DNA from: Candidatus Omnitrophota bacterium
Lineage (GTDB): Bacteria; Omnitrophota; Gorgyraeia; Gorgyraeales; Gorgyraeaceae
Direction: 5' to 3'
Assembly: GCA_018902915.1 (NCBI GenBank)
Contig: JAHIPS010000106.1
Coordinates: 5,504-69,503, forward strand
DNA length: 64,000 nucleotides
Shown here: piece by piece, positions 8,781 through 56,074 of the stretch
How positions within the stretch are numbered: position 1 is the stretch's first letter
Layout: every line of letters begins with the position of its first letter
Notes under the pieces: generated by a model
The model's database searches: none
What the model was told of the DNA's origin: nothing
What the model saw: the letters and a program-made list of their open reading frames with translations, nothing else
Translations under genes and position numbers: made by a program

Positions 8781-8841
8781 TGTTCAAGGCTAAGCCTTGA
8801 ACAGTTACATCTGTTACATGTTCAAGGCTTAGCCTTGAACA
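8781..8841. repeat. Paired 23-bp perfect palindromes TGTTCAAGGC-T(A/T)A-GCCTTGAACA, copies at 8781-8803 and 8819-8841.
   Basis: Read directly from the sequence. The same element recurs at 29607-29660, 44808-44844 and 56023-56074. Copy 2 supplies codons MFKAKP plus the TGA stop of gene 8822..9388. Confidence 0.9.
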
Positions 8842-9388
8842 TGCTGTCGTCCAGCATATCCTTGTTAATACTTACGCAGGATTTGCTCCTCAATTCCTCT
8901 ATCCACGCGTTCATAGCATCTGTTTCTTTTTTTCTCCTTACATCCCTCTCTATATCCCGTCTTACCTTGGAAAAAGGCAATGTCTCGCCAGAGGCGTTAT
9001 AATACTCCTTGACCTCGTCTTCATAGACATGGACCAGGCCTGATATCTCCTTGCTTTTCCTTTCAAGTAAAATCTTTAAAAGCGCCTGTTCCCAGTAATT
9101 CTCGATACTCTTCATAAAATCCTTTTCCCTGTCAAGCCCCTGACGCTGCGCATCCTGAAGCAAGATCTCTTTCTCCAGCAGCCTGTCCAGATATTCCTCC
9201 CTGCCCTCTTGTGTCTCCAAAAGCACCGCATCATCGTAAGGCGTATTATCCAATTCGTATCTCAAGTCCTCGACGCTCATCCTGTAGTCATTCACCTGCG
9301 CGACCACTCGTTTATCGCCTTTGTCGCTGCCGCGCGCGCACCCTGTTAAAAATAAAACCACGAGACCTATAAATAAAACTCTCTTCAT
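8822..9388 (-). CDS. Lipoprotein, possibly a SurA-N-like chaperone domain (weak).
   Basis: MKRVLFIGLVVLFLTGC lipobox. The track starts at TTG 9421, but ATG 9388 with a GGGGGGAGG RBS is preferred. The C-terminal MFKAKP* is encoded by the palindromic repeat. Confidence 0.5.
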   Translation of the reverse strand: MKRVLFIGLVVLFLTGCARGSDKGDKRVVAQVNDYRMSVEDLRYELDNTPYDDAVLLETQEGREEYLDRLLEKEILLQDAQRQGLDREKDFMKSIENYWEQALLKILLERKSKEISGLVHVYEDEVKEYYNASGETLPFSKVRRDIERDVRRKKETDAMNAWIEELRSKSCVSINKDMLDDSMFKAKP

Positions 9389-10908: not shown

Positions 10909-12336
10909 TCATATGCAGGCCTCTATCGAATTCTTCCATCCGTAATGCGGTCTAAAGGCCAGGCACCTGCCCTTAATGGCATCCAGAGGTTTGTTCCAAT
11001 CATTTACGTTCGATACACAATTTATTTTTTTGAAATCACAATCACAAAGCCTATCCAGATTCACCTTTGATATCTTTTTAAACTTGGGTATCTTTATAGG
11101 GTCAAAGCCCATAAGCCTGCTTGTGACTACATCTACTAAAAAATCATTGGATCCGGCTACCAATACACCGCAGCGTTTAGATCGAGGATTAATAGGGCCG
11201 TCCCCTTCGCCGGCTATAATACCGTCTACGATAACAAACATCTTACGCTGTCTTTTTTCTCGCATAACACCCTTTTTATCAGCATAGGAAACTATATATG
11301 CAAGGTCTAAAATAGTCCTCCACATAACATCATTACCTGGCCAGTCCCCCCTGCTTACACACACATCTGTAACGCCTTTAAATTGCCTAAGATTATCTAT
11401 AATCGGTATAATAATTCTTCCGAGATATCTCTTTAATAAGCCTACTGCTGTCTTTTTTATCCCGGCTGACGAATCCCTTGAAGCACTGCAGGAAGGCGCA
11501 TTCGTGTGCGGCAACCAGTCTCTCTCTCCGGTAACACCTATCATATTTTTAAGGGCCAGGGTAACACCTGAGCGTTTATGCGTTTTCATCTTTGGAAGGT
11601 TCAATATTACGTCTGCCTGTAACAGCGTATTGGATATTGAATATTCGCTGTTATCTTTATTGTGGTGTAAGCGCAGTATTTCCGGCTTGAAGTCAGGGCC
11701 GCTTAAAGATCCGCAATCTATGCCGCCTATCTTAAATTCACTGCTCGAGCCCAGGTCCACCCTTGTGTAACCAGCAGGATCCCCCTTCAGTCTGATCCTT
11801 TTAACTATATCGTTATTTTTCCTTATAACCATCTCCTGCCTTAAATCATATATATCTAATTCAAAACCGGCGTTCTTCCTGTAAAATTCCCTGACCTCCT
11901 CCAGACCTGAAAGTCTGACTATCTTATCGAAATCGCCGTCGTCCACGGGCCCATCTGCGATTATGATCCTGCCCTTACCTTTTAAGGCAATATAGGCATA
12001 ATCCGTGACTGCCCTGATCAAAGAACCGTGCGTGATCAAGGCCTTTATCCCTCCGGGCCTTCCGCTAAAATGCCTCATAAAATTCGGTTTTATCAGCACC
12101 TTCTGGCCCGGCAATATAAATGAACCTAACGGATTCCAGTCCACTGTGCCGAAATTATCCAGGTCCAGTTCCATAAGCTTAAACAATTCCCTCAAAGACG
12201 CGTAGATCTCATTCCCCCTGTCTGTGATCCTGCTTTCCTTGAAAGGATACTCCTTGAATATAAAAGGAGGGTTATGAGGAGCCCTTTTAGAATAATCCGT
12301 CTTCTTCTGTTTGTAGATACCGACTTTATCTTTCAT
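10909..12336 (-). CDS. DUF362-like domain protein (uncharacterised, often in EPS loci).
   Basis: VLIKPNF..., LNLPKMKTHKRSGVTLALKNMIGV and IVDGIIAGEGDGP resemble the DUF362 family pattern. The assignment is from memory of the family consensus. Confidence 0.4.
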   Translation of the reverse strand: MKDKVGIYKQKKTDYSKRAPHNPPFIFKEYPFKESRITDRGNEIYASLRELFKLMELDLDNFGTVDWNPLGSFILPGQKVLIKPNFMRHFSGRPGGIKALITHGSLIRAVTDYAYIALKGKGRIIIADGPVDDGDFDKIVRLSGLEEVREFYRKNAGFELDIYDLRQEMVIRKNNDIVKRIRLKGDPAGYTRVDLGSSSEFKIGGIDCGSLSGPDFKPEILRLHHNKDNSEYSISNTLLQADVILNLPKMKTHKRSGVTLALKNMIGVTGERDWLPHTNAPSCSASRDSSAGIKKTAVGLLKRYLGRIIIPIIDNLRQFKGVTDVCVSRGDWPGNDVMWRTILDLAYIVSYADKKGVMREKRQRKMFVIVDGIIAGEGDGPINPRSKRCGVLVAGSNDFLVDVVTSRLMGFDPIKIPKFKKISKVNLDRLCDCDFKKINCVSNVNDWNKPLDAIKGRCLAFRPHYGWKNSIEACI

Positions 12337-17832: not shown

Positions 17833-19908
17833 TTAAGCAGTATTATAGTATTTTCTGTAATAGTAATGCGGGTAGGAATAAGAGTCGTTGGTAAGCGAGA
17901 TATTATTTACAATAATCCCTAAAATCCTTGCGTCCACCTTTTCCAGTAAATCCTTTGAGCGGTTTAAAAGATCTCTTGTTGCCTTGCCGCCTTCAGCTAT
18001 CAAAACCACGCCCGTACAGATAGTGGATAAGATCTGCGCATCTGTAACAAGCGCTATAGGAGGCGAGTCGAATATTATCTTTGAAAATTCTGAAGTGGCA
18101 TTTTCCAGGAAAAGCTTCATCCTCTCCGACGAGAGTAGTTCTGCCGGTCTGTGCGTAGCCTTTCCGGCTGTAACCACATACAGGTTATCATTGCCTGAAT
18201 GTCTTACGACACTATTAAAATCATTTTTTCCTGAAAGAAATTCGGACAGGCCTGATTCATTTTTGTCGTTAAATATCGTATGCACCCTGGGCTTACGCAT
18301 ATCAGCGTCCACCAGGAGGACCCTTTCGCCGCTATTCGCTATCATCATTGCAAGATTTACCGCGGTCAGAGTCTTGCCCTCGCGCGGTACAGAACTGGTG
18401 ATGACAAGACTCTTTGCAGAGCTGGAATGATTTAAGGAAAAGAGTAGATTTGTCCTTATAGAACGATATGCCTCGGCAGCCAACGAATGTGAGTCTTTCT
18501 CTACAATGCGGTCAATATCTAATTTTTTCTTTATGTTCTTGCCGTCGGTCCTTACCCTGGGCACAGAACCTAATACAGGTATTTGAAGCAAGGCCGCTAT
18601 CTCAGCAGGATCTCTGAGTGTGGTATCCATATAATCCCTGAAAAACGCTAATCCTATCCCGCCTGCGAAACCCAGTATCATAGAAAAAATTATATTAAGT
18701 TTCTTCCTGGGTTTGATAGGTTTCCTGGGCACTTCTGCCATATCCTGTATACGTATATTATTTGCCTGTACCTGACTCGAGATAGATGTCTCCTTTAACC
18801 TGTTAAGCACGATCTCTAACATGCGCTCATTTGTGTCCACCTCTCTCTGCAGGGCATTATAATCTATTATCTTTCTATCCAGTTCGAGCGCCTTCTTTTT
18901 CTCCCCATCTAACGCTATCTTCAGTTTCCTTTCTTCTTCGAGCGCGCTCTTGTAATCGTTTCCAACTTCGTCTTTTATGCGCGACGCGAGATAGGCTATA
19001 TTGTCCAAAAGGCGTATCATCTTAGGATGCTTGTGCTTGTATACCTTTTTATAATCGGTCAACAGCGCCTCCTGCTTCAAATAGTCATTTTTTAATTGCA
19101 GCAGCGTCTCATTGTCTGCCAGAAGCGCGGGTAGATTCTCCAATAGCATCTCGCCTTCTTTATCCAGCAGGCTTTTGTAAGTAGTCTCGGCCTTTACCCT
19201 TCTCTTCTGGGCATCGACATAACCTGCATTCAGTCTTTCCAGCGAGTCATTGGTAATATTCTCCTGATTTTTTATTGAAACAACATTGTTTTCCTCTTTA
19301 TATACCTGCAGATTGAGCTCTGACTCTGTGACCCTTCTCTTTTGTTTCTCGACTTCCTGCCTCAACCACTCCTGGGCCTCGCCTGATATCTTTATCTTTA
19401 ATGCAAGGTTGGAATATACATAACTCCTGGCAAATTCATTTGCCAGGCGGGCGGCCTGTTTAGGATTTTTATCGTCGATCTGTATCCCTATCATCCTGGT
19501 GTCTCTTATCGACTTGACCTCTAATTTTTTAAGAAGCACCTCTATCGGGTCCTTTGCCTTTTTAAAATCTTCTTGATTAAAAAGCTTGAGCTTTTTAATA
19601 ACAGCGTATGCCAGGCGTCTGCTCTTGATTATCTCGTACTGTGTCTCCATGTAATCCCTGTATCCCCAATAATTGTTTTCGCCTAACTCGACGACATCTC
19701 TCACGTCGCGGCCTGATAAAACCTCCGGACTCCTGGCGTCGACGATCACTGTTGCGGTAGCGCGATAGATCTTCTGCTGTTTAAAGGTACCTATCGCAAT
19801 GGTAGTAACGGTTATCAGGAAGAAACTTATAAAGATCCACTTCCTGCGCCGCAATACCGCAAGATAATCCTTTATATGTATTGTTTTGTTAATATCGCCT
19901 ATATTCAT
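17833..19908 (-). CDS. wzc: Polysaccharide biosynthesis tyrosine autokinase (Wzc/GumC-like polysaccharide co-polymerase + BY-kinase).
   Basis: N-terminal Wzz-like TM/coiled-coil region. Walker A SSVPREGKTLTAVNLAMMIA, then VLLVDADMRKP. C-terminal Tyr cluster YSYPHYYYRKYY. The probable start is ATG 19908 (MNIGD...) with a GAGGAAGG RBS; the track starts at 19959. Confidence 0.85.
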   Translation of the reverse strand: MNIGDINKTIHIKDYLAVLRRRKWIFISFFLITVTTIAIGTFKQQKIYRATATVIVDARSPEVLSGRDVRDVVELGENNYWGYRDYMETQYEIIKSRRLAYAVIKKLKLFNQEDFKKAKDPIEVLLKKLEVKSIRDTRMIGIQIDDKNPKQAARLANEFARSYVYSNLALKIKISGEAQEWLRQEVEKQKRRVTESELNLQVYKEENNVVSIKNQENITNDSLERLNAGYVDAQKRRVKAETTYKSLLDKEGEMLLENLPALLADNETLLQLKNDYLKQEALLTDYKKVYKHKHPKMIRLLDNIAYLASRIKDEVGNDYKSALEEERKLKIALDGEKKKALELDRKIIDYNALQREVDTNERMLEIVLNRLKETSISSQVQANNIRIQDMAEVPRKPIKPRKKLNIIFSMILGFAGGIGLAFFRDYMDTTLRDPAEIAALLQIPVLGSVPRVRTDGKNIKKKLDIDRIVEKDSHSLAAEAYRSIRTNLLFSLNHSSSAKSLVITSSVPREGKTLTAVNLAMMIANSGERVLLVDADMRKPRVHTIFNDKNESGLSEFLSGKNDFNSVVRHSGNDNLYVVTAGKATHRPAELLSSERMKLFLENATSEFSKIIFDSPPIALVTDAQILSTICTGVVLIAEGGKATRDLLNRSKDLLEKVDARILGIIVNNISLTNDSYSYPHYYYRKYYNTA

Positions 19909-19924
19909 ATGCCTTCCTCTGGTT

Positions 19925-20509
19925 TTAAAAGAAACTCTCCGGCACGACAATGATGTCACCGGGATTAATAGTTATATCCTTTGCCTTGTCGCCTTTCTTC
20001 GTAATGTCTGTTATCCTTATAGGTATGGTTACCTGATTGCCATCTTCGACCCTTATCACCTTGGTCCCGTTCTGGGCTGCGCCTTCTTTAAAACCACCGG
20101 CCATGGTAATCGCCTCTAAAACAGTGGTAGGTCTGTCTTTAAAAAGCTCGTATTCGCCGGGCTCGTTTACAAAACCCATGACGAACACTTTTTCTGCGCG
20201 GTAATCCTCAATAAAAACAGTTACCTGCGGATCGACCAGGTAATCCTTTTCCAGCAATTCTCTTATTGTGTCTTCAACCTCATCTACTGTAAGGCCCTTG
20301 ATCTGGACATTACCTAAAAGAGGGAATGTGATCTCGCCTTTTGAATTCACCCTTGCCTTAGTGATAAGATCAGGCTGTTCATATACTGTTATAAGGATCA
20401 CATCGCCTGCGTCTATCTTGTATTCTGCGGAATACAAAAGACCTGGCATTATGACTAAAATCAGCGAGAGGATTATTATTTTTGATCTTTTTTTAACCTG
20501 TGTGATCAT
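19925..20509 (-). CDS. Periplasmic polysaccharide export protein (Wza N-terminal/SLBB type, EpsE-like).
   Basis: YKIDAGDVILITVYEQPDL Poly_export motif plus an SLBB-like segment. It lacks the Wza C-terminal helix. A signal peptide starts at MITQVKKRSKIIILSL, so the start is likely 20509 rather than the track start 20560. Confidence 0.7.
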   Translation of the reverse strand: MITQVKKRSKIIILSLILVIMPGLLYSAEYKIDAGDVILITVYEQPDLITKARVNSKGEITFPLLGNVQIKGLTVDEVEDTIRELLEKDYLVDPQVTVFIEDYRAEKVFVMGFVNEPGEYELFKDRPTTVLEAITMAGGFKEGAAQNGTKVIRVEDGNQVTIPIRITDITKKGDKAKDITINPGDIIVVPESFF

Positions 20510-20510
20510 A

Positions 20511-21692
20511 TTAAAATTCAGCCCGCGCTGACAATGTAACCACGTTTTGATCATAGTCAAATATGCCGAAATTAGAATCCCTTACTATATGATCGATCCT
20601 GAAGGTCATGGTCAACCATTCCTTCATATAATAGTTTAGTCCCGCGCCGAGCGAAGAATAGCTATCTTCTCTCTTTTTGGTCTCGCCACCCTCTGTGGTC
20701 TCTGTAGGATAAGAATTTATCTGGTATAGACCTGTAAGAAAACCGAGCAGCTTAGGCGTGAAGTAATGGTCGTATGTGGCGGAAACATTTTCAGCCTTGT
20801 AAAAATTATTAGTGCTATATGTCGACTCATGTGCTGTGCGCGAGGCTGAGAGCTTTAGCGCATCCTTGTCTGAAAACTTATGCATAACCTCTGCGTATAA
20901 GACGCCGGAATCAAAATCTGTGGAACCCGCATCCTCGTAATCCCGTAACATTAAACCTGTCTTTATAGTAGCGGTGGTCTTTGGTGTCAATTCCCCTATT
21001 GCGCCGACCAGGAACTGATGGTAATCCGAATCAGAGCGCACTGAATTATCGTCATATCTCACCTGGGCAAAATCATATTCAAATAGAAGATCTGTCTTTG
21101 GAAATGTCCGGTGGGTAACCATAAATGAATAGATGTGTTCTTTTCTGTCATAAACGTCATAGGTATCTTCGGATCTATAATCACGGATAAAATTCTCATA
21201 ACCAAGATGTATGCCGAGCCTCTCTCTCTGGAGCTTGGCCTTGATGCCTGCCCTGTTGTCAGCCCTTTTTACCCTGTCTGTGTCTTCTGTAGAGGGCCTT
21301 TCATAGGTATACGAGAACTCATCATATATTGTAAAGTCAACATCGCGCCAGTCCAGGTCCAGATCACCGGAAAGGTAATGGCTGGTGGCGTCCTGAGAAG
21401 AGTTATCCATGTATTTGGAGTAACCTATATGATAATCTAACCTGAAAAGATGATCACTGAATGGCCATTCAAGGGCAATACCCGGGGTAAGCGTTACTAT
21501 GAAATCATCCTTTTCATCGCTTGAGTCCAGAAACACATTATCATCGTATTGTAGCTGGATTTCACCCCACGGGATAATCTCTATATCAGTATCCCCGAAT
21601 TTAAGGCCTTCTGCAGCATGTAATGGTGAGCTAAAAAACAAGGAAATACTAAGGAAGGTGATGAATATTAAAATCTGGTATACTCTTTTCAT
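20511..21692 (-). CDS. Outer-membrane beta-barrel protein associated with EPS export (PEP-CTERM/EpsL-like porin).
   Basis: Signal peptide, alternating-hydrophobic beta-strand pattern rich in Y/D/S, C-terminal ...LSARAEF aromatic terminus. The position next to Wza/Wzc supports the call. Confidence 0.5.
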   Translation of the reverse strand: MKRVYQILIFITFLSISLFFSSPLHAAEGLKFGDTDIEIIPWGEIQLQYDDNVFLDSSDEKDDFIVTLTPGIALEWPFSDHLFRLDYHIGYSKYMDNSSQDATSHYLSGDLDLDWRDVDFTIYDEFSYTYERPSTEDTDRVKRADNRAGIKAKLQRERLGIHLGYENFIRDYRSEDTYDVYDRKEHIYSFMVTHRTFPKTDLLFEYDFAQVRYDDNSVRSDSDYHQFLVGAIGELTPKTTATIKTGLMLRDYEDAGSTDFDSGVLYAEVMHKFSDKDALKLSASRTAHESTYSTNNFYKAENVSATYDHYFTPKLLGFLTGLYQINSYPTETTEGGETKKREDSYSSLGAGLNYYMKEWLTMTFRIDHIVRDSNFGIFDYDQNVVTLSARAEF

Positions 21693-21741
21693 GTCTTACC
21701 TCTCTTTTTAAAATGTGCGATTTTATGCGAATTTAACTAAA

Positions 21742-21770
21742 AGTATACCGGATTATAAAAGTTTTGTCAA
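21742..21770 (-). promoter_or_regulatory. Sigma70-like promoter for the OM barrel / Wza / Wzc operon.
   Basis: Minus strand: TTGACA (21770..21765), 17-bp spacer, TATACT (21747..21742). An AGAGAGGTAAG RBS precedes the ATG at 21692. Confidence 0.5.
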
Positions 21771-21786
21771 GAGTTTTTTTAAGTTT

Positions 21787-22980
21787 TTATCTATGCCTCC
21801 TTTTCTGCTTTTGGCTCTGAAGCTTCCCTGATTGCTCAATAAAGCTTAATAAATTACCTGATTGTTTATGCCATGTAAAGCCCTGTTTAACAATCTCGAT
21901 ACCCTCCCTGCCCCATTCCTTTAGATATTCCCTGTTCTCATAACAATGATTTATGGCCTTTGCGATGGTCTCTGGGTCATTCTGCTTTATATAGTATAAA
22001 CATTTTCTATCACCCGCTACATTTCTGAAGGTCCATATATCAGAACATATAACAGGCTTTCCCATAGCAAGGTATTCTAATAATTTTATAGGATTGTTAT
22101 TATTCCAGTATTCTATATCAGGATAGGCCATGATAGCACAATCACAATAACTGATATAAAGCGGCACCTCAGGATAAGGTACTGCATTCAAAAAATACAC
22201 CCTTTTTTCCAGGCCAAGGGCCTTGGCCTTCTCGAGTATTTCATTTTTTGCCCCGCCATCCCCGATGAAAACCAGGACTATATCCTTATTATTCACTCTT
22301 TTTACAGCCTCTACGGTCTCAAGCGCCCCCCGGTTGTATCCGATCTCGCCATGCTGCATTAAGACAAATTTATCCCTGAGAAAATCAGGCCTGCGGCAGC
22401 CCCTGGTCTTATCCGGAGAAAACATGTCTATATCAGCTCCTGACCCCCAGACACCTATAAAAGAGGGTTTAAACCCGAAACGGTCGCATACGCACTGCTT
22501 ATAATGATCGGTTATAACAGTCATACCATCCAAAAAGCTCTTACAATACCTATAAGACAACGTGGTGTAAAACTCTAGTATCTTGTCATTTAATGTCGGC
22601 TTATGCGGCTGTATATTATAGAAAGGCGCCCTGTTATCAACAATGATCAGCGTCCTTCTCCCTGGTAAGATTGCAAATGGCACGCTGAACCAGACAGTAA
22701 ATACATCTAAAATAACTACATCCGGCTTAAATATTAAGTAGTGATATATAAACTTTGCAAAGCCAACGATCCAAAAAGTCAATAATCTAAGAAATCTTTT
22801 TCTTATTATAAAAACAGGTATATAACCCCTGCTAAATATGTTACCGGAGGGCGAGCCTGCTATAGCGATCCTGACATCGCACCTCCAACTTTCTTCCAAC
22901 TCTCTACACATCTCGCGCCATGTCGTTATGTGCAGTTTATCTATATCAAACTGGAGTCTTGGAAACCATAATATTTTCAT
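21787..22980 (-). CDS. Glycosyltransferase family 4.
   Basis: C-terminal EYLAMGKPVICSDI GT4 motif; GT-B architecture. Confidence 0.7.
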   Translation of the reverse strand: MKILWFPRLQFDIDKLHITTWREMCRELEESWRCDVRIAIAGSPSGNIFSRGYIPVFIIRKRFLRLLTFWIVGFAKFIYHYLIFKPDVVILDVFTVWFSVPFAILPGRRTLIIVDNRAPFYNIQPHKPTLNDKILEFYTTLSYRYCKSFLDGMTVITDHYKQCVCDRFGFKPSFIGVWGSGADIDMFSPDKTRGCRRPDFLRDKFVLMQHGEIGYNRGALETVEAVKRVNNKDIVLVFIGDGGAKNEILEKAKALGLEKRVYFLNAVPYPEVPLYISYCDCAIMAYPDIEYWNNNNPIKLLEYLAMGKPVICSDIWTFRNVAGDRKCLYYIKQNDPETIAKAINHCYENREYLKEWGREGIEIVKQGFTWHKQSGNLLSFIEQSGKLQSQKQKRRHR

Positions 22981-24382
22981 TATTTTCCCTGCTTTGTTTT
23001 ATGGAGATATTCAGCAAGCCGTATATCAACCAGGCAAATTGAATGGTATGCCCATACCTTAGATATTCTATCTTTATACCATCTATTAATATTAATATGA
23101 CGCTGACAAACAAAAAAAACAGCACGTACCAGTTGTCGTTTTTATTCTTCGCTACTAAAATACGCCAGCTTTCAAACAGCATCTTTAACCAGAAGGCTAA
23201 ATGAATTAGTAGCCCCAGAATCCCGATTTTATACAATATTGTCAGATATAAAGAATGAAAAGAATCTGCTGAATAATAAAGCGAGCTTACATTGTACAGT
23301 CCTTTCCCGAAGATTGTCGGCTCTCTGAGAAAGATACGAAACGCATCCTGCCAGATCTTCCCGCGATTAATCGCTTCCGGGCTCAACAAATCCGAGTAGC
23401 GAAAATAGACCTCTAATCGTCTTGTCAGGCTATCTATCTGCTTAGGGAAAACCCCGAATAGAATGATACACGTTAAAAAAAGCAATAGGACGATTTTTAT
23501 AGTGCTCCACTTGCTGTCCTTTTTTAGTATATTTACCAGCGTAAGGATCAGGGCCAATCCAAAGATCAGGAGGAAAAAAGCGGATCTTGTCACCGTGAAA
23601 ATAATACCTGCCAGGCAGCAAAATAAAGAAAAAATGTAAACATTCTTTTTAAAATGGTAGAAAAGGCCTATGGATAATATGCTTCCCACCAGAAACCATT
23701 CTGCCAGAAGTTCATAGTCCCATACAGTGCCTATAGATCTGTGCATCCCTTCATATACAGAGACCTCTGATACAGGTACCCTGGGACTAAAGACTGCCAG
23801 GTACTCTGTCGCGGTTGGGAATTTATACACCAAAAGCACGATCCCTGACTGTACGACAAGAGTAAACAGGATCACCTTGATGACCGTTCTCACATCTGAA
23901 TGGTCCCTGATAGTAGCGAGTATTATAAAATACAGCAAAATACCGCTTATATTGGCAATATAATATCTGATTGATTGGCCCATGAAAGACGGGTTAAGAA
24001 TCAGTGATACTGTCATAGAAGTAAAGATCAATATAGGCAGTATAAATATGAATTTTGGCTCCATGGTCAGGCTTTTTCTCTCGAAGAGATGACGCAGGAT
24101 CGTAATTATAAACAGAAAATATATCATTATAGTTGTGACTGTCAACGCGTCCCTTCCTGAAAATTGCAATAAATATGGGAACGGGATACTTAATACCACA
24201 AAATACAACATATATTTATCTATTTTCTCAAGGCCGAACCTGTAAACCATGCCTCCTAATAGTAATGCTAAAAATATTAAGCTAATAATTCCAAATGCAG
24301 TCCTGCTCCCGCTAAGGGTCAAAAGTCCTAAAATTATCGCTATAAGGCATGAGGCGCACAGAAACCAGATATGTTTTCGCAT
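22946..24382 (-). CDS. wzy: Wzy-like polysaccharide polymerase / O-antigen ligase-family membrane protein.
   Basis: About 12 predicted TM helices with a larger periplasmic loop near the C-terminal third. It lies inside the Wzx/Wzy locus. Confidence 0.55.
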   Translation of the reverse strand: MRKHIWFLCASCLIAIILGLLTLSGSRTAFGIISLIFLALLLGGMVYRFGLEKIDKYMLYFVVLSIPFPYLLQFSGRDALTVTTIMIYFLFIITILRHLFERKSLTMEPKFIFILPILIFTSMTVSLILNPSFMGQSIRYYIANISGILLYFIILATIRDHSDVRTVIKVILFTLVVQSGIVLLVYKFPTATEYLAVFSPRVPVSEVSVYEGMHRSIGTVWDYELLAEWFLVGSILSIGLFYHFKKNVYIFSLFCCLAGIIFTVTRSAFFLLIFGLALILTLVNILKKDSKWSTIKIVLLLFLTCIILFGVFPKQIDSLTRRLEVYFRYSDLLSPEAINRGKIWQDAFRIFLREPTIFGKGLYNVSSLYYSADSFHSLYLTILYKIGILGLLIHLAFWLKMLFESWRILVAKNKNDNWYVLFFLFVSVILILIDGIKIEYLRYGHTIQFAWLIYGLLNISIKQSRENNENIMVSKTPV

Positions 24383-24394
24383 TTTTATGTCTTT

Positions 24395-25180
24395 TTAATG
24401 TTTAAATGGTTTACCCATATATCGTTCTAGTTTCTTTATCCTGTTCTCTCTTTTAATAAGGGAAGGGTCTTTGATTATCTCGATTATTGTCTGGGCCTTT
24501 TTGATAATGTAGCAGGGGCGTCCGATATCACTTACGCAAGGGGGATCCCCGTATTTACCATAGATATACAGTCCCGGCTGGCTAAACTTTTCAAAATACC
24601 GCCTGGATAAAAAGCTCTCAGGGTTTATATCCACAGGGATATCTGCAAATCGCTTTATAACCGAAGTCCTGGCAACATGAGGGTTTAAGGACCAGATATT
24701 TGATTTTATAAGATCTAACCCATCAATATATATCTCTTCGCCCGGGAGCAGGTATAGCTCATTTCTTCTGGCAAGATTTTTTTTCATCCTGTTGCTGGGT
24801 CTTTTGATCTCTTGCTTGCTGAATCTGATATTATGGATATTCTCATTGTCCTTCATGACTCGTATTATGGCAGTAAGATCTATGGGCTTAAGAAACACCC
24901 AATCATCTTCTAAATGAAAATAGTATTCCGACTGTAAGTTTTTAAATAAATGGTTGACTGCGTTAGCAAAGGTATGTCTCTCTTTATTTATGTTAATGTC
25001 GCTGATTCTATTATACTTCAAAAATTCAAGCAATCGGGGTAAATAGCTTTTATTTTTTTCCAAAACATCTATATGTATAATGAATCTAAAACCTTTGTCG
25101 TATCTTACATTTTTCATAAAACTTGCGTAGGTTGTTTCAAATTGCTTTCTGCATATTGAAGTCACGATCACGTCTATCAT
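24395..25180 (-). CDS. Hypothetical protein, possibly a GT-A-like glycosyltransferase.
   Basis: Soluble, with an HLEDDWVF (DxD-like) segment. No confident family match from sequence alone. Confidence 0.35.
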   Translation of the reverse strand: MIDVIVTSICRKQFETTYASFMKNVRYDKGFRFIIHIDVLEKNKSYLPRLLEFLKYNRISDININKERHTFANAVNHLFKNLQSEYYFHLEDDWVFLKPIDLTAIIRVMKDNENIHNIRFSKQEIKRPSNRMKKNLARRNELYLLPGEEIYIDGLDLIKSNIWSLNPHVARTSVIKRFADIPVDINPESFLSRRYFEKFSQPGLYIYGKYGDPPCVSDIGRPCYIIKKAQTIIEIIKDPSLIKRENRIKKLERYMGKPFKH

Positions 25181-29606: not shown

Positions 29607-29660
29607 TGTTCAAGGCTAAGCCTTGAACATAAGTAGATGTTCAAGGCTTAGCCTTGAACA
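29607..29660. repeat. Paired 23-bp palindromes (copy 1 at 29607-29629, copy 2 at 29638-29660) between folC and mnmE.
   Basis: Same element as at 8781. Copy 1 provides MFKA plus the TAG stop of folC. Confidence 0.9.
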
Positions 29661-32511: not shown

Positions 32512-33498
32512 CTATATGTTGAAACGGATGTTGATGATGTCCCCGTCTCTTACGATATACTCCTTGCCCTCAACCTTTAATACACCTCTCTCGCGCGCCT
32601 TATGCATGGAGCCGCACTTTATGAAATCCCCGTAATTCACGACCTCTGCCCTTATAAAGCCCCGCTTCATGTCAGAATGTATTTTACCTGCTGCCTCGAT
32701 TGCTGGCAAGCCGGATTTTAGATACCAGCCTTTTGTCTCTTTATCGCCTGTTGTAAAAAATGTGATGAGGTCCAGCTTTTTTGATATCAATTTCGACAGC
32801 TCTTCCCTCAAATCATGCCCGATCCCCATCTCCTTCAAAAATTTATTTCTCTCTTGAGGTTCTAATTCCAGCACCTCTGATTCTATTTTTCCACAAAAGT
32901 AAATATGTTGTATACCTAAAGACTTGGCATATTCTTCGAGAGGCCCTGTCTTATTCGAATTATCTGAAATATTTATCGCCAATATCAAGGGTTTCAAGCT
33001 TAAAAATACCATGCCGGAAAGAAACCTTATCTCGTCCTCGTCAAGTCCGGCTTTATACAAAACCTTCCCTTCTGAAAGCGTATTCTGATACCTTTCTAAT
33101 ATCTTCGACTCTCTTTCCTTGTCAGGCCTTGATTCCTTTTTTAGCCTTTCGATCCTGTTCTGTACGACCTCAAGATCTGTAACAATAATATCAGTTATAA
33201 GTTTCTCAAAATCCTTTTTGGGATCCTGACTAAAAACCGCGCCTATCACGCATATAAATAGATCTATATCCTGTAATTTCGAAAGGTCTTTTTTTGCAAA
33301 AGAAGATAGAGCGCCCAGATCTATAAAAGTAGTCTCCGGATAAGTCCTTTTCTTTGAAGAAAAAATCTCAAAAATCCCGTCAACGCGAGGATCCGCGGAT
33401 TTAAACACGCCTATGTCGCCTGATACGCCTGCCTGCAACAATACCTTTAATAGAGTGCTCTTTCCGCTCTGTGAAGGGCCAATTATACCGATCTTCAT
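32512..33498 (-). CDS. YchF/OLA1-like GTPase-family protein with a C-terminal TGS domain (divergent).
   Basis: P-loop GIIGPSQSGKSTLLKVL. The C-terminus AAGKIHSDMKRGFIRAEVVNYGDFI...EGKEYIVRDGDIINIRFNI closely parallels the E. coli YchF TGS tail. It is shorter than canonical YchF. Confidence 0.55.
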   Translation of the reverse strand: MKIGIIGPSQSGKSTLLKVLLQAGVSGDIGVFKSADPRVDGIFEIFSSKKRTYPETTFIDLGALSSFAKKDLSKLQDIDLFICVIGAVFSQDPKKDFEKLITDIIVTDLEVVQNRIERLKKESRPDKERESKILERYQNTLSEGKVLYKAGLDEDEIRFLSGMVFLSLKPLILAINISDNSNKTGPLEEYAKSLGIQHIYFCGKIESEVLELEPQERNKFLKEMGIGHDLREELSKLISKKLDLITFFTTGDKETKGWYLKSGLPAIEAAGKIHSDMKRGFIRAEVVNYGDFIKCGSMHKARERGVLKVEGKEYIVRDGDIINIRFNI

Positions 33499-36737: not shown

Positions 36738-39700
36738 TTAATTTATTATACCATAGATCCTGTTGCGCACAACTATAAATAATTCCTTTGGCTTTAAAAT
36801 CAGCGCTTTCAGATCCTCGAAAATAAGATAAAGGCTCGGCACTAAGAACAAAGTCAGTATTGTCGAGGACGCCATACCGCCTATAACAGTGATCGCGAGC
36901 GGCGACCAGAGATTCGATGATTCGCTCCTGTCAAACGCCATTGGCATAAGCCCGAGAATAGTCGTGGATGTCGTCATAGCGATCGGCCTGAGCCTGTCCT
37001 CGCCCGCCTCTATCAATGATTTCAATAAATTCGTTGATTTTTGCCGCCGCAAAAAGTTTATCCTGTCAACCAAAACGATCGCGTTATTTACAACAATGCC
37101 CGCGAGCATGATAGCGCCTATTATCACGCCGCGGCTTATAGGCTTGTGTGTGATCTTTAATGCAATGATTATCCCTATGACTGCCAGGGGAACCGATATC
37201 ATTATAATAAACGGCTGGGTGTATGATTCAAAAAGAGACGCGAGCACGAGGTAAACTAAAAATATGGTTATCCACAATACACCTGTTGGAAATGCCCATA
37301 GTTCCCTTTCGTTCTCTAAATTCCTTTCGTAATTACCTCCGATCCTGTAGTAATAGTCTCTTGGAAATTCCATATCTGAAAGATTGGCTCTGATTCTCTT
37401 TACTGCCGCTATAAGGGAGTATTTCGTAACCATAGCTGTTATGTGCACGACCCTCATCTTGTTCTTTCTTACTATCTCGCTAGAGCCGATCTGCGGCGTA
37501 AAATTCGCAACCTGTTCCAATAATATAGGATAGCCGTCTTCTGAAAAAAGCACGAGTTTTCTTAAATCATCCAGGCGCTCCCTGTCTTCTTTTCTCAAAC
37601 GCGACACAGTCTCTATCTCTCTTGCCTCTGTATGATATAATGTCGCGCGCAAACCCCTGATCTCGGAATGCAGGGTTTCCGATATATCCTTTGTGGTCAA
37701 GCCATACATGCCGGCTCTTTCCTTATCGACGGTAATACCCCATTCAGGCCTGCCGCTGATCCTGGACATCCTTATGTCTTCAAAGCCTTCTATTGTCCCG
37801 AGCCTTGTCGCGATTGAAACAGCCAGTTCCTTTAATATAGCGTAATCATATCCATAAAGATCCAGCACGATCTCCTTTAAACCCTTTTCCTCTATCTCTG
37901 AAAAGTATATAAACCCTCCTTTATACTTTTGCTCGACAGTCTTGGCCTGTGCGCGTATATCATCTATGATAACCTTGGTGGAGCGCTCTCTCTGAGCAAG
38001 CGCCACGAGCTTGACATACGCCTTGCTGGACCACGGCTCAACGCGCGAGGTAAATGTCTTTATCTCTGGTATCTTGGAAAGCAAAAGTTCTATCTCTTTT
38101 ACCATCTGGTCTGTTACATCCAGCTTTGCGCCCGGCTCCAGTTCTATAAATATAGTAAACCTTCCTTCCTCTGTGCCTGCCATGAATTCTCTATCGATCT
38201 TTGACCCCATTAATAGCGCAAGCACCAGTATCCCAAACGCCGCCACCACGAATAGATACCTTAACTTTAATCCAGTCCCAAGAAATCTCCTGTAATATGC
38301 CTGTATATTTAAAAATATATTCTTTTGGAATAATTTCTTTTTTGGTCTTGGCGCAGCCGGTATCTTTTTCATGCGGTCTGTGAGCATGGGGACAAGCGTC
38401 AACGCGACAAAAAGCGAAGAGAGAAGCGAATACGTTACAGTCAGCGAAAGTCCGCTCCACAACATACGCGTGGCCTTGTTTACAAAAACAAAAGGTAAAA
38501 ACACTATTATCGTGGTTATGGTGGACGCGACTATCGCAAGTCCCATTTCTGAAGCGCCGCTCACAGCCGCCTGCGTGTATTTTTCTCTCCATCCTGCTGT
38601 CCAAGGCGAAGCCTCGGACAAACCTGTCCGAGGCTTCGCCTTGAACAGGATGGCTTTTTTCTTTTTATCAATATTATCGAGCACGACGATAGAATTATCT
38701 ACGAGCATACCTATGCCCAGCGCAAGCCCGCTCAGCGTCATTACATTTATCGATATCTTATTAAAAAACATCAATATGAACGTGGCCATGACTGATATCG
38801 GGATCGTGGCAGCGATTATAGATGTGGGCCCGGCATCGCGCAAAAACAAAATCAGTATCATGACAGCCAGGATCGCACCATAGATAAGAGAAGTCTTCAC
38901 AGCGTTTATTGCCTCCTGTATTGTCTCTGCCTGGTTCAACGTGGCCTTTATAAATATCCTTTTATCCAGCTTTCTCTTCAAGCGCCTGAGTTCCTTTTGC
39001 ACGTTGGAGACAACCTTTATGGTATTGGCCGTGGATTCCTTTTGTATGTAGAGGGAAACAACTGGCTCGATATCTGTCCTCGCGTAACTAACTGGCTCTA
39101 AAAATGAATCCCTTATCCTCGCGACTTCTTTAAGCTTTATAACAGAACCCTGCGGCGTGGTAGAGACTCCGATATCTTCTATATCCTGAAGCGATTCAAA
39201 CTCGCCCATTATCCTTACAAGATATTTATTCTTCCGTCGCTCAATATCGCCTGCAAGTAGATTTAAATTATTCGCGCCCAGGGAATTTACAACATGCTCC
39301 ATTGGTATGTGATACTTGTAAAGTTTATTCTGGTCCACCTCGACCAGTATCTTGCGCTCCCTGCCGCCGTACACGTCCACATTCGCTACGCCGTTCACGC
39401 GAAGTATGTACTCCTTCATCTCCTCGTCAACTACCTTGCGCAGCATCTCAGGGGTATAGCCCTCTCCTGTTACTGCTAATAGAAGCACTGGCGTGTCAGA
39501 TTCTTTATACTGCGCTATTATTGGCTTTTCTATCTCGCGCGGGAGCTTGTCCCGGATTTTTGAAAACTTTTCTCTTACCTCGAGCGCGGCAAAATTCATA
39601 TTCGTGCCTGGCTCAAACTCGAGCCATATCCTGGACTCGCCTGCCTTTGACGTGGAATAAAGATTCTCTAAATAATTGACACTAGATACTACCTCTTCGA

Positions 39701-39902
39701 TAGGCCGCGTGACAAGCGTCTCTACCTCCTGCGGTGGCATACCTCCTCTTACAGCAACGATTATGCTTATATCACCATACACGACATTGGGCTTGAGCTC
39801 GACTGGCAGGCGCTGCAACGACACAAACCCCACCAGCACTACTCCGATGAATAGCATGAATATCGTTATCGGACGTTTGACTGAAAATTCAGACAAATTC
39901 AT
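36738..39902 (-). CDS. RND efflux permease (AcrB/HAE1 family), second of a tandem pair.
   Basis: 1054 aa with a 12-TM RND topology, large periplasmic loops and the typical N-terminus MNLSEFSVKRPITIFMLFIGVVLVG. Confidence 0.9.
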   Translation of the reverse strand: MNLSEFSVKRPITIFMLFIGVVLVGFVSLQRLPVELKPNVVYGDISIIVAVRGGMPPQEVETLVTRPIEEVVSSVNYLENLYSTSKAGESRIWLEFEPGTNMNFAALEVREKFSKIRDKLPREIEKPIIAQYKESDTPVLLLAVTGEGYTPEMLRKVVDEEMKEYILRVNGVANVDVYGGRERKILVEVDQNKLYKYHIPMEHVVNSLGANNLNLLAGDIERRKNKYLVRIMGEFESLQDIEDIGVSTTPQGSVIKLKEVARIRDSFLEPVSYARTDIEPVVSLYIQKESTANTIKVVSNVQKELRRLKRKLDKRIFIKATLNQAETIQEAINAVKTSLIYGAILAVMILILFLRDAGPTSIIAATIPISVMATFILMFFNKISINVMTLSGLALGIGMLVDNSIVVLDNIDKKKKAILFKAKPRTGLSEASPWTAGWREKYTQAAVSGASEMGLAIVASTITTIIVFLPFVFVNKATRMLWSGLSLTVTYSLLSSLFVALTLVPMLTDRMKKIPAAPRPKKKLFQKNIFLNIQAYYRRFLGTGLKLRYLFVVAAFGILVLALLMGSKIDREFMAGTEEGRFTIFIELEPGAKLDVTDQMVKEIELLLSKIPEIKTFTSRVEPWSSKAYVKLVALAQRERSTKVIIDDIRAQAKTVEQKYKGGFIYFSEIEEKGLKEIVLDLYGYDYAILKELAVSIATRLGTIEGFEDIRMSRISGRPEWGITVDKERAGMYGLTTKDISETLHSEIRGLRATLYHTEAREIETVSRLRKEDRERLDDLRKLVLFSEDGYPILLEQVANFTPQIGSSEIVRKNKMRVVHITAMVTKYSLIAAVKRIRANLSDMEFPRDYYYRIGGNYERNLENERELWAFPTGVLWITIFLVYLVLASLFESYTQPFIIMISVPLAVIGIIIALKITHKPISRGVIIGAIMLAGIVVNNAIVLVDRINFLRRQKSTNLLKSLIEAGEDRLRPIAMTTSTTILGLMPMAFDRSESSNLWSPLAITVIGGMASSTILTLFLVPSLYLIFEDLKALILKPKELFIVVRNRIYGIIN

Positions 39903-44784: not shown

Positions 44785-44807
44785 ATCGTCATCCCTTATG
44801 TATTACG

Positions 44808-44844
44808 ATGTTCAAGGCCGATGTTCAAGGCTTAGCCTTGAACA
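44808..44844. repeat. Palindromic repeat locus: a half copy at 44808-44819 plus a full 23-bp copy at 44822-44844.
   Basis: Same element as at 8781. It supplies MFKAKP plus the TGA stop of the OMF gene (stop at 44827..44825). Confidence 0.85.
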
Positions 44845-47980: not shown

Positions 47981-48063
47981 ATCTACCTCCCTGTTTTTCG
48001 CTCCCCTTATTTGACAAATCCGACACGTACGTTTTGTCAAATAAGGCTCGCGCGACTAAATTC

Positions 48064-52775: not shown

Positions 52776-52827
52776 TTCTCGACTCGTTTCACTCGCTCGA
52801 AGAATATTGTTCGAGCGAAGTCGAGAA
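52776..52827 (-). other. Extended RNA hairpin in the intergenic region upstream of the lipoprotein gene and downstream of the TPR-GH gene.
   Basis: TTCTCGACT (52776-84) pairs with AGTCGAGAA (52819-27). CGCTCGAA (52794-801) pairs with TTCGAGCG (52810-17); loop GAATATTG. No T-tract follows on the transcribed strand, so it is not a canonical intrinsic terminator. Confidence 0.5.
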
Positions 52828-52863
52828 CAACTGTTTTACACTCTCTCCACACCTCCTTCCTTA

Positions 52864-56022: not shown

Positions 56023-56074
56023 TGTTCAAGGCTTAGCCTTGAACATTTAAATGTTCAAGGCTAAGCCTTGAACA
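56023..56074. repeat. Paired 23-bp palindromes (copy 1 at 56023-56045, copy 2 at 56052-56074) between the two ABC permease genes.
   Basis: Same element as at 8781; the centre is TTA in copy 1 and TAA in copy 2. Confidence 0.9.

What the first reader, a model, noticed from the sequence alone, without database searches (positions are those of the whole stretch)
8781..8841. Recurrent 23-bp perfect palindrome (REP/MITE-like) in pairs at four loci, donating C-terminal codons and stop codons to three genes
TGTTCAAGGC-T(A/T)A-GCCTTGAACA occurs as two closely spaced copies at 8781-8841, 29607-29660 and 56023-56074, and as 1.5 copies at 44808-44844. Each unit contains ATG TTC AAG GCT AAG CCT TGA in one frame. 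The TTA-centred variant reads ATG TTC AAG GCT TAG.

Three unrelated minus-strand genes run into the element and terminate with its codons: the lipoprotein at 8822-9388 (...MFKAKP*), folC (...MFKA*) and the OMF gene (...MFKAKP*). The same sequence also creates spurious CSRLSLEH/Q peptides in the six-frame track.

This looks like a lineage-specific REP-like element family. The elements likely form stable hairpins that act as mRNA 3' stabilisers or terminators. They have been domesticated as gene ends.
Basis: seen in the sequence. Interest (0 to 1): 0.6.

Follow-up and report, generated by a model that had tools for sequence, protein, structure and literature searches.

The report
Palindromic repeat family in Omnitrophota operons
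A 23-base perfect palindrome, usually present as an inverted pair that folds into one long hairpin, is a multi-copy repeat element of a small clade of uncultivated Omnitrophota. It sits between operon genes, rewrites the last codons of some genes and is inserted in frame inside others, so it resembles REP/REPIN elements and is not a terminator.

Summary
The window holds seven perfect copies and one half copy of TGTTCAAGGC-TWA-GCCTTGAACA at four junctions, where chance predicts none. I found a fifth, variant pair in frame inside an RND pump gene.

The window is a Candidatus Omnitrophota MAG (GCA_018896715.1). The same unit occurs at 20 or more loci of a related MAG (FolC 86% identical), in two other Omnitrophota genomes and in 18 metagenome contigs. 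It is absent from viral contigs.

Pairs are inverted in 24 of 28 cases and fold as one 23-32 bp hairpin of about -47 kcal/mol with no U-tract. Half of them extend 3-5 bp into locus-specific flanks.

Strains about 98-99% identical differ by a flipped spacer, a symmetric spacer change (TTTAAA/TCGCGA), 12-13 bp arm duplications, and presence or absence of the RND copy.

The MFKAKP/MFKA tails of the lipoprotein, FolC and the outer-membrane factor are lineage-specific, because orthologues end differently. In relatives the pair sits in frame inside MtnA, TsaB-like and glycosyltransferase genes, with the arm's TGA mutated.

Verdict: a REPIN/RPE-like palindromic repeat family with no transposase found. 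It is not a terminator. Effects on mRNA are plausible but untested.

The parts
8781..8841 (.). Family A1 inverted pair: unit 8781-8803 (TAA on the + strand), 15-nt spacer, unit 8819-8841 (TTA). It fills the lipoprotein/HAMP-protein junction. The downstream RBS GGAGG and ATG (8766) follow 14 nt after the element.
   Evidence: (one hairpin, -47.1 kcal/mol, z -12.3)
8822..8839 (-). Element-encoded last codons (MFKAKP) and TGA stop (8822-8824) of the SurA-like lipoprotein. They replace the native ...AFSTN* end seen in orthologues.
29607..29660 (.). Family A1 inverted pair with an 8-nt spacer at the folC/mnmE junction. FolC reads through unit 1 (CSRLSLEH) and stops at the TAG in the loop of unit 2 (29616-29618). 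The mnmE ATG is at 29596.
   Evidence: -47.5 kcal/mol
44806..44844 (.). Single A1 unit (44822-44844) preceded by a 13-bp tandem duplication of arm plus 3 flank nt (44806-44818 = 44819-31). The OMF ORF ends in it (MFKAKP*, TGA at 44825-44827). The MFP ATG is at 44784.
56023..56074 (.). Family A1 inverted pair (TTA then TAA) with the palindromic spacer TTTAAA, making a 52-bp perfect palindrome between two ABC permease genes. The RBS GGAGAG abuts it and pairs with the upstream CTCCTC.
   Evidence: (-49.1 kcal/mol)
38598..38647 (.). Variant inverted pair (GAA/TTC loops, with arm changes compensated between the two units) inserted in frame in RND pump ORF 36738-39902. It encodes ...LFKAKPRTGLSEASPWT... 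just after the TM4 equivalent. It is absent from 99.7-100% identical strains and from the L051 outgroup.

Best explanation
The 23-bp palindrome is one arm of an inverted doublet of about 50-60 bp. This doublet is a non-coding, non-autonomous repeat element (REPIN-like) specific to a clade of Candidatus Omnitrophota.

Shown:
- The family is multi-copy and is shared by several related genomes.
- Doublets are the dominant form, and they are inverted.
- Units are invariant while spacers are hypervariable.
- Sub-families differ by compensated stem changes.
- Copies differ in structure, and in presence or absence, between near-identical strains.
- Copies occur in frame inside conserved enzymes, but only as stop-free versions whose length is a multiple of three.

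Inferred:
- Copies are laid down by a hairpin- or ssDNA-directed process. This could be an unidentified trans-acting enzyme of the RAYT kind, or replication template switching.
- That process replaces a few tens of bases at the target and copies 3-5 flank bases in reverse complement.
- Template switching then keeps the palindrome perfect, flips spacers and duplicates arms.

The unit carries stops in two of three frames: TAA or TAG in the loop and TGA in the right arm. An ORF whose own stop was displaced therefore terminates inside the element, which produces the ...FKAKP*, ...MFKA* and CSRLSLEH tails.

On the polycistronic mRNA the doublet would fold into a 23-32 bp perfect helix without a U-tract. 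It would therefore not terminate transcription. It is expected to block 3' exonucleases, to be an RNase III substrate, and to interfere with termination and re-initiation at the junction. All of these RNA effects are inferred.
For: Abundance: 7 perfect units against 0 expected. The same unit occurs at 20 or more loci in MAG CAZBAQ01, whose FolC (P0002) is 86% identical, and in Omnitrophota SAG AM-311-J02 and MM_PC mb.37. It also occurs in 18 JGI contigs. Several contigs end at the element, as expected of a repeat.

Architecture: there are 38 unique clusters, 28 doublets and 10 singles. 24 of 28 doublets are inverted, and 12 of 22 even-length spacers are perfect palindromes (AGCT x5, GGCC x4). 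Doublets fold as one hairpin of -47 to -49 kcal/mol, z about -12.

Flanks: 12 of 25 doublets extend 3 or more bp into the flanks, against 0.9 expected and a maximum of 6 in 5000 permutations. At the RND site the left flank CCATCCTG is the reverse complement of the native right flank, and it is absent from the empty allele.

Sub-families: the A2 sub-family TGGTCGAGGC-GAA-ACCTCGACCA occurs at 6 or more loci. Three stem positions covary.

Strain polymorphism at about 98-99% identity:
- spacer inversion TCTACTTA/TAAGTAGA plus a 13-bp duplication;
- TTTAAA/TCGCGA and a loop flip;
- a 12-bp duplication;
- the RND copy present or absent.

In-frame copies: MtnA (13-aa gap against PDB 2yrf), a TsaB-like protein and a GT9 glycosyltransferase carry the pair, with TGA changed to TGG or TGC and a 5-nt spacer.

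Tails: they are not conserved in orthologues.

Other families: no Rfam family matches and there is no terminator-like tail.
Against: No transposase of any kind was found. Pfam scans of 37 window ORFs, plus the precomputed Pfam hits reported for genes in the strain loci, cover essentially all window genes. A low-sensitivity phmmer search with E. coli RayT over 341 kb of related loci also found nothing. The copying mechanism is therefore unproven.

There is no simple empty-site/filled-site pair with clean boundaries. Both informative cases (the RND gene and the lipoprotein junction) are replacements. The RND patch also carries extra substitutions, so it may have arrived by recombination with a divergent allele rather than by fresh insertion.

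Hairpins persist at all three orthologous junctions examined in relatives (7 of 7 comparisons). Only about 6-7 of 45 gene ends in the window have an exceptional hairpin. This pattern fits a selected RNA function at least as well as it fits selfish spread.

Confidence: 0.7

Rival explanations
1. The hairpins are primarily selected RNA elements, a form of operon punctuation. They would be intercistronic helices that set the relative expression of neighbouring cistrons through exonuclease protection, RNase III cleavage or translational coupling. Under this view the repeat family is only the currently favoured sequence solution.
For: Relatives carry a strong hairpin at the same three junctions, although often with a different sequence.
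- OMF/MFP: a CAG-loop unit in L051.
- folC/mnmE: an A2 doublet, a degenerate doublet, a CCG-loop single unit and an unrelated 18-bp-stem palindrome.
- Lipoprotein/HAMP: the family B hairpin.

Only about 6-7 of 45 gene 3' ends in the window have an exceptional hairpin, so this recurrence is not a generic property. Stems show compensated changes. Stem extensions reach the downstream RBS or start codon at locus 4 and in L093.
Against: The same element sits in frame inside MtnA, TsaB-like, GT9 and RND genes, where an intercistronic function makes no sense. Two single copies appear to lie between divergent ORFs, though that rests on my own crude ORF calls.

The exact 23-mer is identical across genomes whose proteins are only about 80-86% identical. 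That is sequence conservation, not merely structure conservation. Compensated changes and spacer flips are also what template switching produces without selection (PMC8794818). No expression data exist.
Confidence: 0.3
2. They are intrinsic (Rho-independent) transcription terminators, possibly of a U-tract-less type.
For: They are very stable GC-containing hairpins that start at or just after stop codons.
Against: No T-run follows any copy, and the terminator scan does not call them. The next gene's RBS and ATG follow within 10-25 nt with no promoter space. In the loci where flanking ORFs could be called, the neighbours were co-directional in all but two cases (divergent), and no copy lay between convergent genes. 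Copies also lie inside essential-looking ORFs.
Confidence: 0.04
3. They are binding sites for a dimeric DNA-binding protein (an operator, parS-like or nucleoid site) or DNA-uptake sequences that accumulate in situ.
For: The unit is a perfect 10-3-10 dyad with TGTTC...GAACA ends. Its sequence, not only its structure, is conserved across species. Uptake sequences in Neisseria are often found as inverted pairs at gene ends (own knowledge).
Against: The half-site is not enriched outside the palindromes: the 8-mer occurs 5 times elsewhere against 2.85 expected. The flanking genes have no functional coherence. Sub-families with compensated stem changes argue for pairing rather than a fixed protein contact. 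In-frame coding copies exist. Copy number is far above that of typical operators or parS sites.
Confidence: 0.05
4. It is an assembly or sequencing artefact, such as chimeric hairpin reads.
For: Long perfect palindromes can arise from library artefacts, and several contigs break at the element.
Against: The same loci were recovered in independent NCBI, ENA, Logan and JGI assemblies with consistent flanks. Reading frames are maintained through intragenic copies.
Confidence: 0.01

Closest known systems
REPINs / REP sequences with RAYT transposases (Pseudomonas, Enterobacteria; Bertels & Rainey 2011, PMC3116915)
   Same: Both are short palindromic repeats, mostly extragenic. Doublets are over-represented and arranged as inverted repeats. 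Together with a variable spacer they form one long hairpin. Compensatory changes occur across the hairpin, several sub-families coexist in one genome, and singlets look like remnants (for the published definition).
   Different: The unit here is a perfect 10-3-10 palindrome with no conserved GTAG-type head. Spacers are only 3-15 nt, so the whole element is about 50-60 bp. No RAYT was found in the sequence available. Flanks are copied in inverted orientation, which is not a described REPIN feature as far as I know. In-frame coding copies exist. The phylum is Omnitrophota, where no such family has been described.
Rickettsia palindromic elements (RPE)
   Same: Both are palindromic repeats inserted in frame into unrelated housekeeping genes, adding a conserved peptide without destroying the protein, and no transposase is known (quoting PMC10969869).
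   Different: RPEs are about 100-150 bp and mostly intragenic. Here the element is about 51 bp (17 codons), most copies are intercistronic, and intragenic ones need a stop-killing mutation (TGA to TGG, TGC or CGG).
Correia/nemis elements of Neisseria and ERIC elements (MITEs co-transcribed with genes)
   Same: Both are inverted-repeat elements inside operons whose RNA hairpins are cleaved by RNase III or alter mRNA decay. This is the best functional analogy for a helix of 23 bp or more.
   Different: Those are 100-150 bp MITEs with TIRs, direct target-site duplications and IHF sites. Here no direct duplication is seen, in 33 of 36 flanks, and no RNase data exist.
E. coli REP/BIME between malE and malF, and REPs within 15 nt of stop codons (Newbury 1987; Liang, Rudd & Deutscher 2015; own knowledge, not verified with the tools)
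   Same: Both are intercistronic palindromes that stabilise the upstream mRNA segment. REPs very close to a stop codon lower translation and trigger tmRNA tagging. Three stops here lie inside the helix.
   Different: This is functional analogy only and nothing was measured here. The helices here are much longer and perfect.
Template-switch mutation in quasi-palindromes (Mönttinen & Löytynoja 2022, PMC8794818)
   Same: A single event can create loop inversion, multi-base compensatory change, stem extension and perfect stems. This matches the spacer flip, the TTTAAA/TCGCGA change, the flank extension and the perfect arms.
   Different: That work describes a mutational process and not an element family. 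It explains maintenance and local growth, but not dispersal to new loci.

Membership tests
REP/REPIN-RAYT system | Short palindromic repeat, many copies per genome, predominantly extragenic | tested here: met
   There are 9 units at 5 loci in 64 kb and 20 or more loci in MAG CAZBAQ01. Most lie in gaps of 6-30 nt between ORFs.
REP/REPIN-RAYT system | Doublets over-represented, inverted, forming one hairpin with a less conserved spacer | tested here: met
   There are 28 doublets against 10 singles, and 24 of 28 doublets are inverted. Units are invariant while spacers vary even between strains. The single hairpin has an energy of about -47 kcal/mol.
REP/REPIN-RAYT system | Cognate single-copy RAYT (Y1/HUH transposase) gene, typically flanked by the repeats | not testable with these tools
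   None appears in the window (Pfam, plus precomputed hits). None was found by phmmer with E. coli RayT in 341 kb of related loci.
REP/REPIN-RAYT system | Conserved tetranucleotide head (GTAG-like) next to an imperfect palindrome | tested here: not met
   The unit is a perfect palindrome. Its flanks are locus-specific and contain no conserved GTAG.
MITE (including Correia, ERIC) | Terminal inverted repeats plus a direct target-site duplication, and a related autonomous IS with the same ends | tested here: not met
   33 of 36 flanks have no direct repeat. The two 4-bp cases are themselves palindromes. Flanks are instead inverted complements. No IS with these ends occurs in any locus.
Rickettsia palindromic elements | Palindromic repeat inserted in frame in unrelated ORFs | tested here: met
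   The hosts are the RND pump (window), MtnA (L075/L023), a TsaB-like protein (L058) and a GT9 glycosyltransferase (L031). Pfam domains span the insert, and the PDB alignment shows a 13-aa gap.
Rickettsia palindromic elements | Sequence relationship to the RPE families, ~100-150 bp, Rickettsiales | tested here: not met
   The element is 50-60 bp and comes from Omnitrophota. No Rfam family reached its gathering score anywhere in the window, and the unit sequence appears in no paper in the searchable library. The size and host figures for RPEs are from the literature; sequences were not aligned directly.
Intrinsic terminator | GC-rich stem-loop immediately followed by a U-tract at the end of a transcription unit | tested here: not met
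   No T-run follows any copy, the scanner does not call them, and the next start codon is 10-25 nt away.
DNA uptake sequence (DUS/USS) | Short motif over-represented genome-wide, including as single copies in coding DNA | tested here: not met
   TTCAAGGC occurs 20 times, and 15 of these are inside the palindromes. The remaining 5 compare with 2.85 expected.

The most novel reading that the evidence does not exclude
The family spreads without any dedicated transposase. Under this reading, stalled replication at an existing intercistronic hairpin switches template to another copy of the palindrome and back. This replaces the old hairpin, copies a few flank bases in reverse complement, and thereafter keeps the palindrome perfect. 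Hairpin sites in Omnitrophota operons would then be permanent and probably functional, while the sequence occupying them turns over between competing palindrome families (A1, A2, B and others).
Probability: 0.15. Interest if true: 0.7.

Novelty: new variant of a known kind. Interest (0 to 1): 0.45.

Why it matters
REP/REPIN-type elements have been studied almost only in Proteobacteria. This is a clean, very small example from an uncultivated phylum.

The natural strain variation here shows the element's dynamics directly: a spacer flip, symmetric spacer replacement, arm duplications and in-frame coding copies. The inverted flank copying hints at a mechanism of spread other than classical transposition.

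There are practical consequences too:
- The element breaks metagenome assemblies.
- It creates lineage-specific C-terminal tails and 13-21-residue inserts that annotation pipelines will treat as genuine protein sequence.
- The exact 23-mer is a convenient marker for this clade.

If the junction hairpins prove functional, they would be a handle on operon-level regulation in Omnitrophota.

Tried and rejected
- Exact-protein look-ups for FolC, the HAMP protein and the MFP of the window found nothing. The sister strains were reached through neighbouring proteins instead.
- A database search for the element-encoded peptide failed. A 52-aa concatenated query gave no hit at E<=10, so one of the three protein searches was wasted.
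- The RAYT hunt was negative but weak. Pfam on window ORFs, phmmer with E. coli RayT and a crude HUH/Y motif regex over 341 kb all found nothing.
- Rfam gave no family in the window.
- Viral contigs contain neither the A1 nor the A2 unit.
- Literature: the unit sequence and 'Omnitrophota + palindromic repeat' returned nothing relevant.
- A covariance model of the unit found no further diverged copies in the window. The only other hit is a marginal intragenic palindrome at 22211-22229, E 0.02.
- Considered and rejected: an integron attC site (no GTTRRRY core, housekeeping context); a LexA/Cheo box (wrong spacing); and a minimal IS made of two TG...CA ends (no target duplication, no parent IS).

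Full report
**1. The observation**

The pattern GTTCAAGGCTWAGCCTTGAAC occurs seven times with no mismatch in the 64-kb window. None is expected in 100 dinucleotide-preserving shuffles. The full unit is the 23-bp perfect palindrome TGTTCAAGGC-TWA-GCCTTGAACA.

Units lie at 8781-8803 and 8819-8841, 29607-29629 and 29638-29660, 44822-44844, and 56023-56045 and 56052-56074. The '1.5 copies' at locus 3 are a 13-bp tandem duplication of three flank bases plus one arm, CGATGTTCAAGGC at 44806-44818 and 44819-44831.

TAA- and TTA-centred units are reverse complements of each other, so every pair is an inverted repeat. It is a variant pair at 38598-38647 inside the RND pump ORF. Neither search found any other copy.

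**2. Context**

All but one of the genes in the window lie on the minus strand. The four canonical loci fill the short gaps between co-directional genes:
- SurA-like lipoprotein / HAMP protein;
- FolC / MnmE;
- TonB_C-OEP outer-membrane factor / HlyD-type membrane fusion protein;
- two ABC permeases.

The downstream RBS and ATG follow within 10-25 nt.

Three upstream ORFs end inside the element...DDSMFKAKP*...SCSRLSLEHLLMFKA* and ...ARPMFKAKP*. The fourth keeps its own TAG 10 nt before the element. Read directly from the sequence, the unit has stops in two of three frames (TAA or TAG in the loop, TGA in the right arm) and is open in the third frame (CSRLSLEH).

**3. Source and distribution**

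The window is 100% identical to JAHILR010000163.1 of GCA_018896715.1. Its proteins have Candidatus Omnitrophota best hits.

An exact scan of one genome per species found the same TWA-loop unit in these places:
- at 20 or more loci of MAG CAZBAQ01 (GCA_964489855.1);
- in Omnitrophota SAG AM-311-J02;
- in MAG MM_PC mb.37.

The remaining hits have other loops and longer, unrelated stems, and look like chance hairpins. CAZBAQ01 is labelled 'Planctomycetia', but its FolC is 86% and its lipoprotein 80% identical to the window's proteins.

The JGI metagenome collection holds 18 contigs with the unit. Viral contigs hold none. Several contigs end at the element. The family is therefore real, dispersed and confined to a narrow lineage.

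**4. Architecture**

Over 38 non-redundant clusters there are 28 doublets and 10 singles. 24 of 28 doublets are inverted: 19 TAA-then-TTA, 4 TTA-then-TAA, and 1 GAA-then-TTC. Spacers are 3-15 nt, most often 4. 12 of 22 even-length spacers are themselves perfect palindromes (AGCT x5, GGCC x4, TAATTA, TTTAAA, TCGCGA).

Recurrence of the same two 4-nt spacers at different loci suggests that the doublet, not the unit, is what gets copied.

As RNA the doublets fold into one 23-32 bp helix of -47 to -49 kcal/mol (z about -12). The alternative of two -13.5 kcal/mol hairpins is much less stable.

In 12 of 25 doublets the palindrome continues 3-5 bp into locus-specific flanks. Permutation of flanks gives 0.9 expected and a maximum of 6 in 5000 trials. 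Singles show much less extension. There are no direct target-site duplications.

A second sub-family, A2 (TGGTCGAGGC-GAA-ACCTCGACCA), also occurs as inverted doublets, at 6 or more CAZBAQ01 loci. Across unit variants, three stem positions change on both sides (UA/GC, UA/CG, AU/GC), and 95.8% of cells are paired.

**5. Strain-level dynamics**

The comparator assemblies are about 98-99% identical overall, and up to 100% in some segments. They differ from the window in the following ways:
- At folC/mnmE the 8-nt spacer is inverted (TCTACTTA versus TAAGTAGA). An extra 13-bp arm-plus-flank duplication changes the FolC tail to ...CSRLLFKAKP*.
- At the permease junction the spacer is TCGCGA instead of TTTAAA. 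Four of six bases differ, yet both versions keep a 52-bp perfect palindrome. One assembly has a flipped loop.
- At the lipoprotein junction a Logan assembly has an extra 12-bp duplication.

Similar 12-14 bp arm-plus-flank duplications recur at other loci. Units stay identical throughout. Loop inversion, multi-base symmetric change, stem extension and perfect stems are the published signatures of replication template switching in hairpins (PMC8794818).

**6. Element-derived protein ends**

- FolC orthologues are alignable up to GSLYVVGEA and then have unrelated tails.
- The lipoprotein family ends ...AFSTN* or ...FSxK*. MFKAKP occurs only in the same species.
- The syntenic outer-membrane factor in L051 (74% nucleotide identity) ends ...FRLARARE*, 8 nt before its own palindrome. 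The window protein continues ...FRIANARP-MFKAKP*.

The tails are therefore lineage-specific and come from the element. The second refutation test, a conserved tail without the palindrome, also fails.

**7. In-frame copies**

The window's RND pump has 21 residues (AILFKAKPRTGLSEASPWTAG) where the 99.7-100% identical strains and the L051 outgroup have 8 residues ((R/Q)I(R/K)FSE(K/S)D). The site is directly after the AcrB TM4 equivalent.

In this copy the canonical TGA is CGG and the loops are GAA/TTC. The arm changes are compensated between the two units, so the long helix survives. The new left flank CCATCCTG is the reverse complement of the native right flank. Extra substitutions just downstream mean the patch could have entered by recombination with a divergent allele.

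In related genomes the doublet lies in frame inside three other genes:
- MtnA (LFKAKPCT..VQGLALNR; a 13-residue gap against PDB 2yrf);
- a TsaB-like protein;
- a GT9 glycosyltransferase.

In each of these, TGA is changed to TGG or TGC. In the MtnA and TsaB-like copies the spacer is 5 nt, which makes 51 nt, or 17 codons. Pfam domains span the inserts. MurD and a ParA-like protein have element-derived C-termini. This is the Rickettsia-palindromic-element pattern and is hard to reconcile with a purely regulatory origin.

**8. Persistence at orthologous junctions**

Relatives carry a strong hairpin at all three junctions that could be compared:
- OMF/MFP: a CAG-loop unit.
- folC/mnmE: an A2 doublet in CAZBAQ01, a degenerate doublet, a CCG-loop single, and an unrelated 18-bp-stem palindrome in GCA_964445715.1.
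- Lipoprotein/HAMP: a different hairpin, family B (CCTTATYTGAYAAA-N14-TTTRTCARATAAGG). Family B also occurs in the window at 48005-48046 and in L089.

Only about 6-7 of 45 gene 3' ends in the window have an exceptional hairpin. These junctions are therefore stable hairpin sites whose occupant turns over. Either the hairpin is selected, or new palindromes preferentially replace old ones. I cannot separate the two.

**9. What it is not**

- It is not an intrinsic terminator. There is no U-tract, there is no room for a downstream promoter, and the scanner does not call it.
- It is not a known RNA family.
- It is not an uptake sequence or operator. The half-site is not enriched outside the palindromes, the neighbouring genes have no functional coherence, and the stems show compensated changes.
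- It is not a classical MITE, because there is no direct target-site duplication.
- No transposase was seen in the window or in 341 kb of related loci. That search is weak, and whole genomes could not be scanned.

**10. Verdict**

The best-supported reading (about 0.7) is a REPIN-like palindromic repeat family of a narrow Omnitrophota clade. The following steps are shown:
- copy number;
- inverted-doublet architecture;
- sub-families;
- strain polymorphism;
- element-derived tails;
- in-frame copies.

The following steps are inferred:
- the agent of spread;
- template switching as the maintenance process;
- all RNA-level effects (exonuclease barrier, RNase III target, interference with termination and re-initiation when the stop lies in the helix). 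These last rest on analogy with E. coli REPs and Neisseria Correia elements (Newbury 1987 and Liang et al. 2015 from my own knowledge).

It passes the structural criteria for REPINs but lacks the GTAG-type head and a demonstrated RAYT. I therefore file it as a new variant of a known kind, of moderate interest.

Noticed in passing
window 48005-48046: A second palindromic family (B), CCTTATTTGACAAA-N14-TTTGTCAAATAAGG, lies between the stop of ORF 48064-50856 and the ATG (47980) of the ROK gene. The same element occupies the junction orthologous to window locus 1 in L099 (735-776) and L100 (641-682), and also occurs in L089 (789-830). Its arms contain TTGACA.
   Followed up: partly
L017 6745-6806, L023 2030-2052, L052 2196-2246, L054 2453-2475, L058 1057-1079, L093 1341-1401: Sub-family A2 (TGGTCGAGGC-GAA-ACCTCGACCA) forms inverted doublets in MAG CAZBAQ01. 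It differs from A1 by compensated stem changes. At folC/mnmE it occupies the site that A1 occupies in the window.
   Followed up: partly
L094 2748-2788: An unrelated 18-bp-stem perfect palindrome, CTTAAGTTTACACTTTAA-CATTG-TTAAAGTGTAAACTTAAG, overlaps the FolC stop at the folC/mnmE junction of GCA_964445715.1. It may be another species-specific repeat family.
   Followed up: no
window 44806-44831; L065 ~11249-11274; L097 ~1825-1850; L006, L017, L077, L081 flanks: Tandem duplications of 12-14 bp, made of one arm plus 3-4 flank bases, recur next to units and are polymorphic between strains. The mechanism is unexplained; hairpin-associated slippage is one possibility.
   Followed up: partly
window 52790-52830: A unique nested hairpin (TTCTCGAC..TCGCTCGAA-loop-TTCGAGCGA..GTCGAGAA) lies in the 122-nt gap between the GH2 gene and the 229-aa ORF.
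   Followed up: no
window 22211-22229: An intragenic palindrome, AGGCCAAGGGCCTTGGCCT, lies inside a glycosyltransferase gene. It is a weak hit to the unit model (15 bits, E 0.02) and is probably chance.
   Followed up: partly
window ~19800-24500 versus L065 16588-21281: The polysaccharide-synthesis segment (Wzy, glycosyltransferases, Wzz/GNVR) is only 93% identical between strains, against 98-100% elsewhere. This suggests recombination or diversifying selection at a surface-polysaccharide locus.
   Followed up: no
window 32530-32675 versus L065 8080-8409: Around ychF the ENA strains L065-L067 differ in structure from the window and from L068. No ychF gene is called there, and a 133-aa ORF is called on the opposite strand instead.
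   Followed up: no
window 58814-63955 (runs off the window): This is the C-terminal part of a giant ORF. The orthologue is called as 5665 aa in L069 and 5649 aa in L071. All but one of the window's genes are on the minus strand.
   Followed up: no
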